From NCBI GenBank assembly GCA_036785375.1, contig JAWMAR010000401.1:1-64000 (forward strand): DNA of 64,000 nucleotides, in the 5' to 3' direction. Each line of letters starts with the position of its first letter. Within the stretch, counting starts at the first letter, position 1. Shown piece after piece: positions 27,001 through 30,000 of this stretch. The stretch comes from Leucoraja ocellata (lineage: Eukaryota). A program made the position numbers.

Positions 27001-30000
27001 AAGGAGAAGGATATTGAATTATGTGAGGTAAGGGAAACTAGTAGAGTAGCTATGGATACTATGAGGTTCAAAGTAAAAGAAGTACTGACACTTTTGAAAA
27101 ATATAAAAGTGGATAAGTCTCCAGGTCCTGACAGGATATTCCCTAGGACATTGAGGGAAGTTAGTGTAGAAATAGCCGGGGCTATGACAGAAATATTTCA
27201 AATGTCATTAGAAACGGGAATAGTCCCCGAGGATTGGCGTACTGCGCGTGTTGTTCCATTGTTTAAAAAGGGTTCTAAGAGTAAACCTAGCAATTATAGA
27301 CCTGTTAGTTTGACTTCAGTGGTGGGCAAATTAATGGAAAAGATACTTAGAGACAATATATATAAGCATCTAGATAAACAGGGTCTGATTAGGAACAGTC
27401 AACATGGATTTGTGCCTGGAAGGTCATGTTTGACTAATCTTCTTGAATTTTTTGAAGAGGTTACTAGGGAAATTGACGAGGGTAAAGCAGTGGATGTTGT
27501 CTATATGGACTTTAGTAAGGCCTTTGACAAGGTTCCTCATGGAAGGTTGGTTAAGAAGGTTCAACTGTTGGGTATAAATGCAGGAATAGCAAGATGGATT
27601 CAACAGTGGCTGAATGGGAGAAGCCAGAGGGTAATGGTGGATGGCTGTTTATCGGGTTGGAGGCAGGTGACTAGTGGGGTGCCTCAGGGATCTGTGTTGG
27701 GTCCTTTGTTGTTTGTCATGTACATCAATGATCTGGATGAAGGTGTGGTAAATTGGATTAGTAAGTATGCAGATGATACCAAGATAGGGGGTGTTGTGGA
27801 TAATGAAGAGGATTTCCAAAGTCTATGAGTGGAGGATGGTTTAAATGCAGGCTGCTATCGTACCAGTATTGACACTCTTTAAGGGGAACTCAGGAGACCA
27901 GCAATTGCAGAGGGGGATAATCAGGCTTGGAAATTTGCAGCGTTAGTGTGCATTCCTCAGTACCAAATTACTATCTACAGACACCTGCACAAAGAGACAT
28001 CCATGCACACAGAGCCACATGTGCTCTGCAGAGTGATTTAGGCCATTTGGAAAAATGGGCTGAAAGATGGCAGATGGAGTTTAATGCTGATAAATGTGAG
28101 GTGCTACACCTTGGCAGGACAAATCAAAATAGGATGTACATGGTAAATGGTAGGGAATTGAAGAATACAGTTGAACAGAGGGATCTGGGTATAACCGTGC
28201 ATAGTTCCTTGAAGGTGGAATCTCATATAGATAGGGTGGTAAAGAAAGCTTTTGGTATGCTAGCCTTTATAAATCAGAGCATTGAGTATAGAAGCTGGGA
28301 TGTAATGTTAAAATTGTACAAGGCATTGGTGAGGCCAAATCTGGAGTATGGTGTACAATTTTGGTCGCCAAATTATAGGAAGGATGTCAACAAAATAGAG
28401 AGAGTACAGAGGAGATTTACTAGAATGTTGCCTGGGTTTCAGCAACTAAGTTACAGAGAAAGGTTGAACAAGTTAGGGCTTTATTCTTTGGAGCGCAGAA
28501 GGTTAAGGGGGGACCTGATAGAGATCTTTAAAATGATGAGAGGGATAGACAGAGTTGATGTGGACAAGCTTTTCCCTTTGAGAATAGGGAAGATTCAAAC
28601 AAGAGGACATGACTTCAGAATTAAGGGACAGAAGTTTAGGGGTAATATGAGGGGGAACTTCTTTACGCAGAGAGTGGTGGCGGTGTGGAATGAGCTCCCA
28701 GTGGAAGTGGTGGAGGCAGGTTCATTGGTATCATTTAAAAATAAATTGGATAGGCATATGGATGAGAAGGGAATGGAGGGTTATGGTACGAGTGCAGGCA
28801 GGTGGGACTAAGGGGAAAAAAAATTTGTTCGGCATGGACTTGTAGGGCCGAGATGGCCTGTTTCCGTGCTGTAATTGTTATATGGTTATATGGTTATATG
28901 GAATACGTTTACTGGCCAAGTATGTACACATACAAGGAATTTGCCTTGGTGATCCGCTCGCAAGTAACAATACGGCATACAGTAACAATTAAGAAAACAT
29001 TAAACATTAATAATGAAACATTATCGTTTAAACATGTGAAAAATAAAATACCAGAGAAAAAGGAGGCTACAGATTTTTGGTTATTGAATAGAGCTACTAC
29101 TCGTGGAAAAAAGCTGTTTTTATGTCTGGCTGTGGAGGCTTTGACAGTCCGGAGTCGCCTTCCACAAGGCAGTGCTTCAAATAATTTGTGGCCAGGTGTC
29201 AGAGATGATCTTACCCACTCGCTTCCTGGCCCTTGCAGTGAACAGTTCGTCAATGGGGGGAAGGTTGCAGCCAACAACCTTCTCAGCTGATCAGATGATT
29301 CACTGCAGCCTCCAGATGCCATGCTTGGTGGCTGAGCCAAACCAGATCATGATTGAGAAGGTGAGGACAGACTCTACAATGGCCGTATAGAATTGGACCA
29401 TCATTGCCTGTGGCAGATTGTGTTTCCTCAGCTGCTGCAAGACATACATCCTCTGTTGGGCATTTTTGACTGTGGAGTCGATGGTGGCCCCCCATTTCAG
29501 GTCCTTGGAGATGATGGTTCCAAGGAACTTAAAAGACTCCACAGATGTAACTGTGGTGTTGGTGATGGTGAGTGGGGTGAGGGGAGGGGGAGCTCTCCTA
29601 AAGTCTCCTATCAATTCCACTGTCTTAAGAGCATTGAGCTCCAGGTAGTTGTGATGGCACCAGGACACCAGCTGTGTCACTTCCTATCTGTAGGCAGATT
29701 CCTCCCCATCCTGGATCAGTCTAATTAAGGTTGTGTCATCAGCAAACTTGAGAAACTTGACAGAGGTGTCTGTGGAGGTGCAGTCGTTGGTGTAGAGATA
29801 GTAAAGGAGAGGAGAGAGTACGCAGCCTTGCGGTGCTCCTATGCTGAGGGTTTGCGGGTCCGAGATGTGCTTTCCCAGCCTCACATGCTGCTTCCTGTCT
29901 GTCAGGAAGTTGGTGATCCACTGACAGAGGAGTTTAGGCACAGTCATCTTGGAAGGTTTGGAGTGTAGTAGCTCTGGCACATTGGTGTTGAATGCACCTC

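What the first reader, a model, noticed from the sequence alone, without database searches (positions are those of the whole stretch)
27825..28028. 200 bp inverted templated insertion from 8 kb upstream interrupts a young CR1 RT
Seen: the RT frame stops at QSL* because 27825-28024 is the reverse complement of 19403-19602 (about 5 mismatches), including sequence not shared with the third copy at 21350. The CR1 resumes at 28029 with nothing lost; the junction shows tcta...tctg, a near 4 nt duplication. The sister CR1 at 16920 lacks the insert, and there is no tail or TIR. Inference: a locally templated insertion via break repair or template switching, possibly from PKIB pre-mRNA or favoured by pairing of the inverted CR1 copies.
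Basis: partly seen in the sequence, partly recalled or inferred. Interest (0 to 1): 0.7.

Follow-up and report, generated by a model that had tools for sequence, protein, structure and literature searches.

The report
Inverted local DNA patch inside CR1
A 200-base copy of DNA from 8 kb away, flipped in orientation, sits inside a dead CR1 retrotransposon copy in what looks like a ray or shark genome; it is most likely a scar of chromosome-break repair, which is a known kind of event.

Summary
Window 27825-28024 (+) is the reverse complement of 19403-19602, with 195 of 200 bases identical and no gaps. An inverted sister CR1 (16064-17422) and 7 of 7 related reverse transcriptases run straight through the site. 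The CR1 has 203 extra bases: 199-200 copied, plus a 3-4 nt duplication (tcta/tctg).

The insert has no terminal inverted repeats, no tail, no unusual fold, and no Rfam or tRNA match. It is not a unit of a repeat family. 116 nt lie inside an old dispersed repeat, whose other copy (21350-21547) continues 78 nt past the insert's edge. The other 84 nt are flank found nowhere else in the window.

Best reading: a break in an already integrated, 5'-truncated CR1 was patched with a copy of nearby DNA. This is a templated insertion, close to class 2 templated sequence insertions.

The PKI exon is on the + strand, so a simple switch to PKI pre-mRNA during CR1 reverse transcription predicts the opposite orientation. 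Pairing with the sister CR1 is compatible with the data but not shown.

A genome-wide donor search and read support could not be checked. This is a clean example of a known kind of event, of modest interest.

The parts
27826..28024 (+). Inserted patch: 199 nt that can only come from the donor. The base at 27825 (a) is shared with the CR1, giving the 200-nt match 27825-28024. It puts tga at 27826-27828 in the RT frame.
   Evidence: 97.5%, 200 columns, no gaps; junctions and mismatch positions; ORF ends at 27828.
27822..27825 (+). Left copy of the duplicated target bases (tcta). It is identical to the sister CR1.
28025..28028 (+). Right copy of the duplicated target bases (tctg). It is either a 4-nt duplication with one later change, or a 3-nt tct duplication if the original codon was ctg.
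   Evidence: chance level.
19403..19602 (-). Donor locus, still intact, 8,223 nt upstream of the insert and in the opposite orientation.
19487..19680 (-). Old dispersed repeat at the donor locus. The insert holds its 19487-19602 part (116 nt, 1 mismatch) but not 19603-19680.
   Evidence: 81.8% to 21547-21350 over 203 columns.
19403..19486 (-). 84 nt of flank outside that repeat. In the window it matches only itself and the insert (95.2%, 4 mismatches).
21350..21547 (+). Third, diverged copy of the repeat. It continues 78 nt past the insert's 5' edge and stops where the 84-nt flank begins.
26179..27825 (+). CR1-B, part 5' of the insert. It is 5'-truncated, with the C-terminal end of the endonuclease domain and RVT_1 in one open frame of 552 codons.
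28029..28901 (+). CR1-B, part 3' of the insert. It holds the rest of the RT and C-terminal region (open to 28811), a 3' hairpin, and 3.1 copies of an 8-nt unit at 28877-28901.
16064..17422 (-). Sister CR1 of the same young family, inverted, 5'-truncated at 17422, with unrelated flanks. It lacks the insert. It has its own 66-nt insertion (17098-17163) and a 7-bp deletion.
24820..24981 (+). Context: PKI-family coding exon (MTDVEP...GRTGRRNA...). It sets the direction of host-gene transcription.
   Evidence: PF02827, E 5e-22, profile 1-48 of 69.

Best explanation
After a 5'-truncated CR1 copy (CR1-B) had integrated, its DNA broke between the codons for ...QSL and QSD... . The break was repaired by inserting a copy of a 200-nt stretch lying 8.2 kb upstream on the same chromosome, in inverted orientation.

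Shown: the donor is retained (copy, not cut). Nothing was lost from the target. 3-4 target bases are duplicated. At most one base of homology exists at the left junction and none at the right.

Inferred: the break had a short 5' stagger that was filled in. The patch was then made in one of two ways. Either one broken end primed DNA synthesis on the nearby locus and was then end-joined, or a free copy of that stretch was captured by end joining. Three of the five differences lie within 5 nt, which suggests that the copying was error-prone.

The event has no function. It is a repair scar in a dead element.
For: The 200-nt match has 5 substitutions and no gaps. The sister CR1, an older CR1 and 7 of 7 relatives are uninterrupted at the site.

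The insert spans the junction between an old repeat and its flank. The third repeat copy runs 78 nt beyond the insert's 5' edge and lacks the last 84 nt. The insert's ends therefore do not coincide with the ends of any repeat unit seen here, and a repeat/flank junction is specific to one locus.

No inverted repeat joins the two ends of the insert. The DNA fold is weaker than shuffles: z +2.33, with 199 of 200 shuffles folding at least as well. There are 0 Rfam matches and 0 tRNA genes in the window. The insert's 3' end has neither poly(A) nor the CR1 hairpin plus 8-mer tail.

The junctions are end-joining-like. The size fits experimental break patches, which range from 73 to 414 bp with a median of 191 bp (PMC5110952, text read).

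Three of the 5 mismatches fall within 5 nt; the chance of that is 0.0087.
Against: The search for a closer donor could only cover these 64 kb. No collection holding this genome was available.

Insert and donor differ by 2.5%. That exceeds the 0.55% between the two CR1 copies around the site (p 0.026). This could point to a different, unseen source, or to an insert older than the similarity of the flanks suggests. If the 3-base cluster counts as one event the excess is not significant (p 0.18).

The duplication is imperfect (tcta/tctg) and on its own is close to chance level.

Known class 2 patches are described as coming from distant loci and as lacking target duplications (PMC5110952). Known polymerase-theta insertions are short, copied from beside the break, and accompany deletions (PMC4032859, passages).

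The sequence cannot tell synthesis-primed copying from fragment capture.
Confidence: 0.68

Rival explanations
1. The patch was made from RNA. Either a cDNA of a local transcript was captured at the break (as proposed for class 2 templated sequence insertions), or the repair polymerase copied RNA directly.
For: Experimental break patches of this size are enriched for transcribed sequence and are reduced by reverse-transcriptase inhibitors (PMC5110952, read). A young, RT-encoding CR1 family is present: an open frame of 552 codons and an uninterrupted relative at 99% identity. The donor lies 5.2 kb upstream of a PKI coding exon on the same contig and may be transcribed as a 5' intron. Capture of a free cDNA has no orientation constraint.
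Against: The insert shows no splice junction, poly(A) or other RNA hallmark. It is not shown that the donor is transcribed on either strand. A distance of 8 kb on the same chromosome is explained more simply by DNA proximity. The published RNA-derived patches come from distant loci.
Confidence: 0.1
2. The insert arose at the moment CR1-B integrated. The CR1 reverse transcriptase left the CR1 RNA, copied 200 nt of another RNA present at the locus, and returned to the CR1 RNA 4 nt behind where it had left.
For: Insert-donor divergence (5 of 200, 2.5%) is the same as the overall divergence of the two CR1 copies (30 of 1295, 2.3%; p 0.80), so the insert could be as old as the CR1. LINE reverse transcriptases are known to switch templates (recalled). 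Re-copying 4 nt would give the duplication.
Against: CR1-B and the PKI exon are both on the + strand. First-strand switching to PKI pre-mRNA would therefore give direct, not inverted, orientation, and an antisense RNA would have to be assumed. Two switches that land back within 4 nt of the starting point are not a described outcome. Described LINE chimeras are single switches that give 5' fusions (recalled).
Confidence: 0.07
3. 19403-19602 is not the source. Both it and the insert are copies of a third sequence elsewhere in the genome: a larger repeat or a segmental duplicate. The insert may then be a fragment of a multi-copy element.
For: 116 of the 200 nt do belong to a dispersed repeat with at least two, perhaps three, old copies in the window. 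Four of the 5 mismatches fall in the 84-nt part. The 2.5% divergence is higher than that of the CR1 flanks. Only 64 kb could be searched.
Against: The only other copies seen are 73-82% identical. The 84-nt part has no other match in the window at E 0.1 with 7-nt words. The insert's ends are internal to the repeat on one side and outside it on the other. There is no TIR, no TG...CA ends and no tail.
Confidence: 0.1
4. It is an assembly or read artefact: a chimeric join made during sequencing or assembly.
For: Inverted repeats (the two CR1 copies) are places where assemblers and polymerases make errors. No reads were available.
Against: An artefact copied from the same genome should be identical to its source. 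Here there are 5 substitutions and clean junctions, with the CR1 resuming exactly where it left off.
Confidence: 0.03

Closest known systems
Class 2 templated sequence insertions and polymorphisms (Onozawa and Aplan; PMC5110952, parts 1-2 of 4 read)
   Same: A stretch of about 200 bp copied from elsewhere in the genome into a break, with the donor left intact. There is no poly(A), and the junctions carry little or no homology. Experimental sizes are 73-414 bp with a median of 191 bp.
   Different: Those donors map to distant regions, often other chromosomes, and are thought to be RNA-derived. Class 2 is defined as lacking target duplications. Here the donor is 8.2 kb away on the same contig, inverted, and 3-4 target bases are duplicated.
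Class 1 templated insertions and other LINE-mediated retroposition of non-LINE RNA (same paper)
   Same: A non-LINE sequence is inserted with a duplication of target bases.
   Different: Class 1 needs a duplication of at least 5 bp, a poly(A) tail and signal, and the LINE-1 target motif. The CR1 equivalent would be a 3' hairpin plus 8-mer repeats. None of these is present at the insert's 3' end.
Polymerase-theta end joining with templated insertions (PMC4032859, passages read; PMC4490562, search listing only)
   Same: A heritable repair scar, with single-base homology at a junction (the a at 27825) and copied rather than random filler.
   Different: There the insertions accompany deletions (50-200 bp in the mutants studied) and are copied from DNA close to the break. 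Here nothing is deleted, the copy is 200 nt long, and the template is 8.2 kb away.
Template switching during replication-based or recombination-based repair (MMBIR/FoSTeS; distant templated insertions in yeast RPA, rad27 and dna2 mutants, PMC11724301, passages read; PMC8421209, abstract start only)
   Same: A 3' end copies a stretch from another locus and returns. Inverted orientation is common. The copying is error-prone.
   Different: Those events are mostly known from mutants, tumours or disease rearrangements, and usually rest on a few bases of microhomology at both junctions. Here homology is 0-1 nt, and the event is an old fixed change in a wild genome.
CR1 LINEs of amniotes (PMC8665684, passages read)
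   Same: The interrupted element has the endonuclease and RT in one frame, a 3' hairpin and an 8-nt 3' microsatellite. It is 5'-truncated, as most copies are.
   Different: The host appears to be a cartilaginous fish. The 8-mer unit differs from the avian ATTCTRTG. Placement within the CR1 clade was not tested by phylogeny.

Membership tests
CR1-type LINE (the interrupted element) | Endonuclease and reverse transcriptase domains in a single ORF | tested here: met
   ORF 26170-27825 matches Exo_endo_phos_2 (E 7.6e-9), Exo_endo_phos (E 2.1e-6, profile 141-225 of 225) and RVT_1 (E 3.9e-28). Only the C-terminal end of the endonuclease remains, because the copy starts at residue 90 of an 898-aa relative.
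CR1-type LINE (the interrupted element) | 3' hairpin followed by a short (typically 8-nt) microsatellite | tested here: met
   The RNA fold of 28822-28901 gives a hairpin at -22.8 kcal/mol, z -1.96, with 5 of 200 shuffles folding as well. There are 3.1 perfect copies of an 8-nt unit at 28877-28901. The sister has the same end.
CR1-type LINE (the interrupted element) | Placement in the CR1 clade rather than L2, Rex1 or others | not tested
   Only indirect evidence. Full-length relatives at 42-47% identity come from turtles, birds and Xenopus. The sources do not name them CR1, and no tree was built.
Class 2 templated sequence insertion (break patch) | Donor retained; insert is an extra copy | tested here: met
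   19403-19602 is intact and continuous with its flanks.
Class 2 templated sequence insertion (break patch) | No target duplication of 5 bp or more, no poly(A) and no poly(A) signal; end-joining-type junctions | tested here: met
   The duplication is 3-4 nt, there is no A run at either end, and homology is 0-1 nt.
Class 2 templated sequence insertion (break patch) | Template from a distant genomic region, RNA-derived | tested here: not met
   The donor is 8,223 nt away on the same contig. RNA origin cannot be tested with these tools.
LINE-mediated retroposition of a foreign RNA (class 1 type) | Target duplication of 5 bp or more and a 3' tail recognised by the LINE (poly(A) for L1; hairpin plus 8-mer for CR1) | tested here: not met
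   The insert ends ...gccacatgtgc, directly followed by tctg and the CR1. Compare the CR1 tail.
DNA transposon or MITE | Terminal inverted repeats | tested here: not met
   Of 8 inverted pairs found in 27700-28150 with 6-nt seeds, none joins the two ends of the insert. The fold is weaker than shuffles.
DNA transposon, MITE or any mobile family | Several copies sharing the same two ends | tested here: not met
   Tested within the window only. The third copy overruns one end by 78 nt and lacks the last 84 nt. The genome-wide test was not possible.
Solo LTR | TG...CA termini with a 4-6 bp target duplication | tested here: not met
   The insert starts tgag but ends gtgc. At the donor locus there is no duplication around the same 200 nt.
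Polymerase-theta end joining scar | Deletion at the break, with a short insert copied from DNA beside the break | tested here: not met
   No base of the CR1 is missing. The template is 8.2 kb away and 200 nt long.
Polymerase-theta end joining scar | Single-nucleotide homology at the junction | tested here: inconclusive
   One shared a at the left junction, none at the right. One base is expected by chance a quarter of the time.

The most novel reading that the evidence does not exclude
The patch is a by-product of recombination between the two inverted CR1 copies.

In this reading, a break at 27825 in CR1-B was repaired off the sister copy 10.9 kb away. That repair homogenised about 930 bp around the break: 4 differences in 726 bases, against 26 in 569 further 3'.

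The 3' end from the right side of the break, once in the sister, travels in ascending window coordinates. It copied 4 nt, then jumped 2.47 kb ahead on the same strand and copied 19403 to 19602. It was then end-joined to the left side.

This would explain the inverted orientation, the local donor, the 4-nt duplication and the identity pattern in a single event. It would also make this 12-kb interval a natural germline fossil of template switching during recombinational repair, with all three partners preserved.
Probability: 0.15. Interest if true: 0.5.

Novelty: new member of a known kind. Interest (0 to 1): 0.3.

Why it matters
Templated insertions at breaks are well documented in experimental systems, tumours and human polymorphism. 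Old fixed examples in which target, empty-site comparator and donor are all readable in one short interval are less often pointed out.

This one is unusually clean. A near-identical sister element gives the pre-insertion sequence to the base. The donor is identifiable because the copy crosses a repeat/flank junction.

It is useful as a worked example, and as a seed for a genome-wide survey. Young LINE copies are natural reporters, because the family consensus supplies the empty site. Such a survey could measure how often, from how far away and in which orientation vertebrate germlines patch breaks with nearby sequence.

The event itself changes nothing for the host. The element was already truncated, and no host gene function is seen to be affected.

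Tried and rejected
- **Mobile-element readings.** MITE or DNA transposon: no terminal inverted repeats and no stable fold. SINE or other structured RNA: 0 Rfam matches at gathering scores and 0 tRNA genes in the whole window. Solo LTR: the ends are TG...GC and there is no duplication at the donor. CR1-mediated retroposition: no hairpin or 8-mer tail.
- **Donor and third repeat copy as the arms of one transposon (19487-21547).** Read by eye. No target duplication was seen at the outer ends, so the idea was left open and is not used.
- **Microhomology that could have primed copying.** Apart from the single a, neither junction shows any. An 8-nt match between the CR1 flank (27812-27819) and the insert (I5) is in the wrong orientation to matter and is at chance level.
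- **A donor for the sister's 66-nt insertion.** None found in the window; the best match is 17 nt at E 0.057.
- **The rest of the PKI gene,** sought to decide whether CR1-B is intronic. 0 of 147 + strand frames of 24 codons or more between 24985 and 39451 matched PKI at E up to 1. Frames inside the CR1 and 10 frames already scanned were left out. The question stays open.
- **More members of the young CR1 family,** wanted to tell gene conversion from a shared sub-lineage.
- **Genome-wide search for a closer donor.** Not possible. 
- **Supplementary files of papers.** Not consulted.
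Full report
**What is there.** The window has no N and no masked bases.

- BLAST of 27700-28150 against the window shows that 27825-28024 is the reverse complement of 19403-19602: 195 of 200 bases identical, no gaps, E 3e-95.
- The DNA on either side belongs to a LINE. 27700-27825 is 100% identical to 17053-16928, and 28025-28150 is 98.4% identical to 16931-16806. Both matches lie in a second copy of the same element on the opposite strand.
- The two matches overlap by four bases in that second copy. 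The interrupted copy therefore carries tcta at 27822-27825 and tctg at 28025-28028 where the other has one tcta.
- Relative to the uninterrupted copy there are 203 extra bases. 199 can only come from the donor, one (a, 27825) is shared by donor and target, and 3-4 are a duplication of the target.
- The reading frame ends ...EDFQSL followed by tga at 27826-27828 and resumes as QSDLGHLEKW at 28029.

**The interrupted element.** ORF 26170-27825 matches the end of the endonuclease/exonuclease/phosphatase fold and RVT_1.

- A tblastn with an 898-aa relative places residues 90-638 on 26179-27825 and residues 637-898 on 28023-28808. The copy is 5'-truncated but otherwise open.
- Its 3' end folds into a hairpin and finishes with 3.1 perfect copies of an 8-nt unit at 28877-28901. 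Avian CR1 studies use this same 3' architecture to define CR1 (PMC8665684, passages read).
- Of 8,000 candidates scored, 4,390 reached E 1e-20. The closest named proteins come from the rays Hypanus sabinus (76-79% over part of the query) and Mobula hypostoma, and from the catshark Scyliorhinus torazame. Turtle, bird and Xenopus proteins follow at 42-47%.
- I therefore take the window for a cartilaginous fish, probably a ray, and the element for a CR1-type LINE. No tree was built, so clade placement is not tested.
- The sister copy (16064-17422, - strand) stops at 17422, where CR1-B continues upstream. Its flanks are unrelated at both ends. The two are therefore separate insertions of one young family, not a segmental duplication.

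**The site is uninterrupted everywhere else.** The sister reads EDFQSLQSDLGHLEKW.

- Five named relatives (catshark, two turtles, frog, duck) have no gap between the columns either side of the insert.
- Neither do two unnamed ones, one of which (P0013) is 99% and 97% identical to the two halves of CR1-B. That makes 7 of 7.
- An older CR1 at 62496-62697 has 70 nt between the matching points, where CR1-B has 273, that is 70 plus 203 (coordinates).
- The site lies about 16 residues after the YADD box of the RT.

**Direction and identity of the donor.** The self-comparison of the window gave 180 pairs of matches; those of 80 columns or more were inspected.

- 19487-19680 is 81.8% identical to 21547-21350. 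This is an old dispersed repeat, with a possible further fragment at 24505-24566 (73%).
- In the alignment of insert, donor, third copy and sister, the third copy shares 78 nt with the donor beyond the insert's 5' edge. It loses all similarity where the last 84 nt of the insert begin.
- Those 84 nt (19403-19486) match nothing in the window but the insert, in a search with 7-nt words at E 0.1.
- The insert is thus 116 nt from inside a repeat plus 84 nt of that copy's flank. A piece that crosses a repeat/flank junction is specific to one locus, and its ends are not the ends of a repeat unit.
- This is the best internal evidence that 19403-19602, or something descended from it, is the source and that the copying ran from there into the CR1.
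- A genome-wide check could not be made.

**What it is not.**

- No inverted repeat joins the two ends of the insert; 8 pairs were found in 27700-28150 and none is terminal.
- As single-stranded DNA the insert folds worse than shuffled versions (z +2.33).
- Rfam and ARAGORN find nothing in the whole window.
- The insert starts tgag and ends gtgc. It has no A run and no CR1 tail, and at the donor locus the same 200 nt are not flanked by a duplication.
- An assembly chimera should be identical to its source. Five substitutions argue against that.

**How it most likely happened.** The simplest account is a DNA break in the already integrated CR1, repaired with a copied patch.

- The absence of any loss, together with a 3-4 nt duplication, fits a break with a short 5' stagger that was filled in on both ends. 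A topoisomerase II cut, which leaves 4-nt 5' overhangs, is one candidate (recalled, not tested).
- Homology at the junctions is one base (left) and none (right). The joins therefore look like end joining, not annealing.
- The sequence does not say whether a broken end primed synthesis on the nearby locus and was then released, or whether a free copy of the 200 nt was captured.
- Three of the five mismatches lie within 5 nt (27964, 27965, 27968). Random placement gives that in 0.87% of trials. This suggests one complex error during low-fidelity copying rather than three later substitutions.
- The duplication itself is weak evidence. 5.9% of positions in the window show as good a 4-nt match across a 199-nt gap, and 1.9% show the first three bases identical.
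- If the original codon was ctg, the duplication is tct, all 200 nt are donor-derived, and both joins are blunt.

*PKIB pre-mRNA.*
- A PKI-family exon lies at 24820-24981 on the + strand (PF02827, E 5e-22; found with a short recalled motif). The CR1 is also on the + strand.
- During first-strand synthesis, a jump of the reverse transcriptase to that pre-mRNA would insert the donor in direct orientation. The insert is inverted.
- An RNA route therefore needs an antisense transcript, second-strand switching, or capture of a free cDNA at a later break.
- It is not shown that the donor is transcribed.
- I tested only the family, not the B paralogue. A fatty-acid-binding-protein-like exon 15 kb downstream fits the PKIB-FABP7 neighbourhood known from human (recalled).
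- The exon was searched on its own.

*Pairing of the inverted CR1 copies.*
- The two copies differ at 4 of 726 aligned bases from 27395 to 28330, against 26 of 569 from 28331 to 28901 (Fisher p 1.8e-6). The near-identical stretch surrounds the insertion site.
- At the protein level CR1-B and the sister share two states (H in LGHLEK, M in NRMYMV) against both P0013 and P0001 inside that stretch, and none outside it.
- This is what gene conversion between the local pair would leave. It is also what a shared source sub-lineage would leave.
- The look-up that might have supplied more family members was unavailable.
- Geometry: a 3' end from the right side of the break that invades the sister is extended in ascending window coordinates from 16928. 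The donor lies 2.47 kb ahead, and the insert has exactly the polarity such a strand would produce. Orientation and side each had an even chance, so this is worth about 1 in 4.
- Against a single combined event: the sister's own 66-nt insertion and 7-bp deletion lie inside the near-identical stretch and were not transferred. In addition, the insert differs from its donor more (2.5%) than the CR1 copies differ there (0.55%, p 0.026). The gap closes if the 3-base cluster is one copying error (p 0.18).

**Comparison with what is known.** The closest described category is the templated sequence insertion.

- *Class 2 templated sequence insertions.* I read the first half of the review by Onozawa and Aplan (PMC5110952). 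Experimental patches at induced breaks measure 73-414 bp (median 191). Their donors stay intact and their junctions look like end joining. Class 2 polymorphisms lack target duplications and poly(A). The present case shares size, donor retention and junction type. It differs in having a nearby, same-contig, inverted donor and a 3-4 nt duplication.
- *Class 1 events.* These are LINE-mediated, with a duplication of at least 5 bp and poly(A). The case fails that definition.
- *Polymerase-theta joining in C. elegans.* This leaves single-base homology and templated inserts in mutants and natural isolates, but with deletions and templates beside the break (PMC4032859, passages).
- *Yeast.* Work there shows distant and inverted templated insertions rising in RPA, rad27 and dna2 mutants (PMC11724301, passages).
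- *Other papers.* Seen only as search listings and abstract starts.
- *Recalled only.* Plant filler DNA, template switching in break-induced replication, and L1 chimeras are not taken from any call.

**Verdict.** The event is a templated insertion from a nearby locus into a dead CR1 copy. It is a new, tidy example of a known class, not a new kind of element or mechanism. Its value is as a reporter: young LINE copies give the empty site for free.

Still unchecked: a genome-wide donor search, read support for the junctions, alleles or orthologues without the insert, transcription of the donor, and the gene-conversion question.

Noticed in passing
window 4197-4406 and 6762-6971: A second local pair of similar size: 210 columns at 98.1% identity, in direct orientation, 2.56 kb apart. 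The flanks are unrelated and there is no other copy in the window. It may be another local templated copy, but there is no empty-site comparator, so neither the direction nor the kind of event can be told.
   Followed up: partly
window 17098-17163 (sister CR1, - strand): The sister CR1 has its own internal insertion of 66 nt, replacing two bases of the family sequence (opposite 27654-27655) and shifting the frame. No donor exists in the window; the best match is 17 nt at E 0.057. It also has a 7-bp deletion opposite 28184-28190.
   Followed up: partly
window 27395-28901 against 17422-16064: Divergence between the two inverted CR1 copies is very uneven: 4 of 726 bases (0.55%) up to 28330, against 26 of 569 (4.57%) after it (Fisher p 1.8e-6). 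This may be gene conversion between the local pair or a shared source sub-lineage.
   Followed up: partly
window 27964-27968 against 19463-19459: Three of the five insert/donor mismatches fall within 5 nt (chance 0.0087). Four of the five fall in the 84-nt non-repeat part, which is not significant (p 0.10 to 0.16).
   Followed up: yes
window 37653-37776 (+): An exon-like stretch matches the central region of the Broad-minded/TBC1D32 family (PF14961, E 2.9e-9, profile 375-408 of 681). It is preceded by a pyrimidine tract and ag, and followed by gtaag. It lies between the PKI exon and the FABP-like exon on the same strand, which is unexpected. It may be a real exon of an overlapping gene or a stray gene fragment.
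   Followed up: no
window 39700-40038 (+): Part of an ORF matches the lipocalin/fatty-acid-binding-protein family (PF00061, E 7e-11, profile 24-83 of 145). It is probably one exon of a FABP gene downstream of the PKI gene.
   Followed up: no
window 19487-19680 and 21350-21547: The donor's repeat and the third copy form an inverted pair about 194 nt long, 1.67 kb apart, at 82% identity. Younger repeats lie in between, including a SINE-like piece at 19682-19847 with relatives at 36491-36639 and 56301-56474. They could be the arms of an old transposon, but no target duplication was seen by eye.
   Followed up: partly
whole window: The window is dense with CR1-like fragments: 36 tblastn matches to one 898-aa relative. 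It also holds a young repeat family with copies at 35337-36133, 42780-43112, 48380-49175 and 51420-51856 at 92-98% identity.
   Followed up: no
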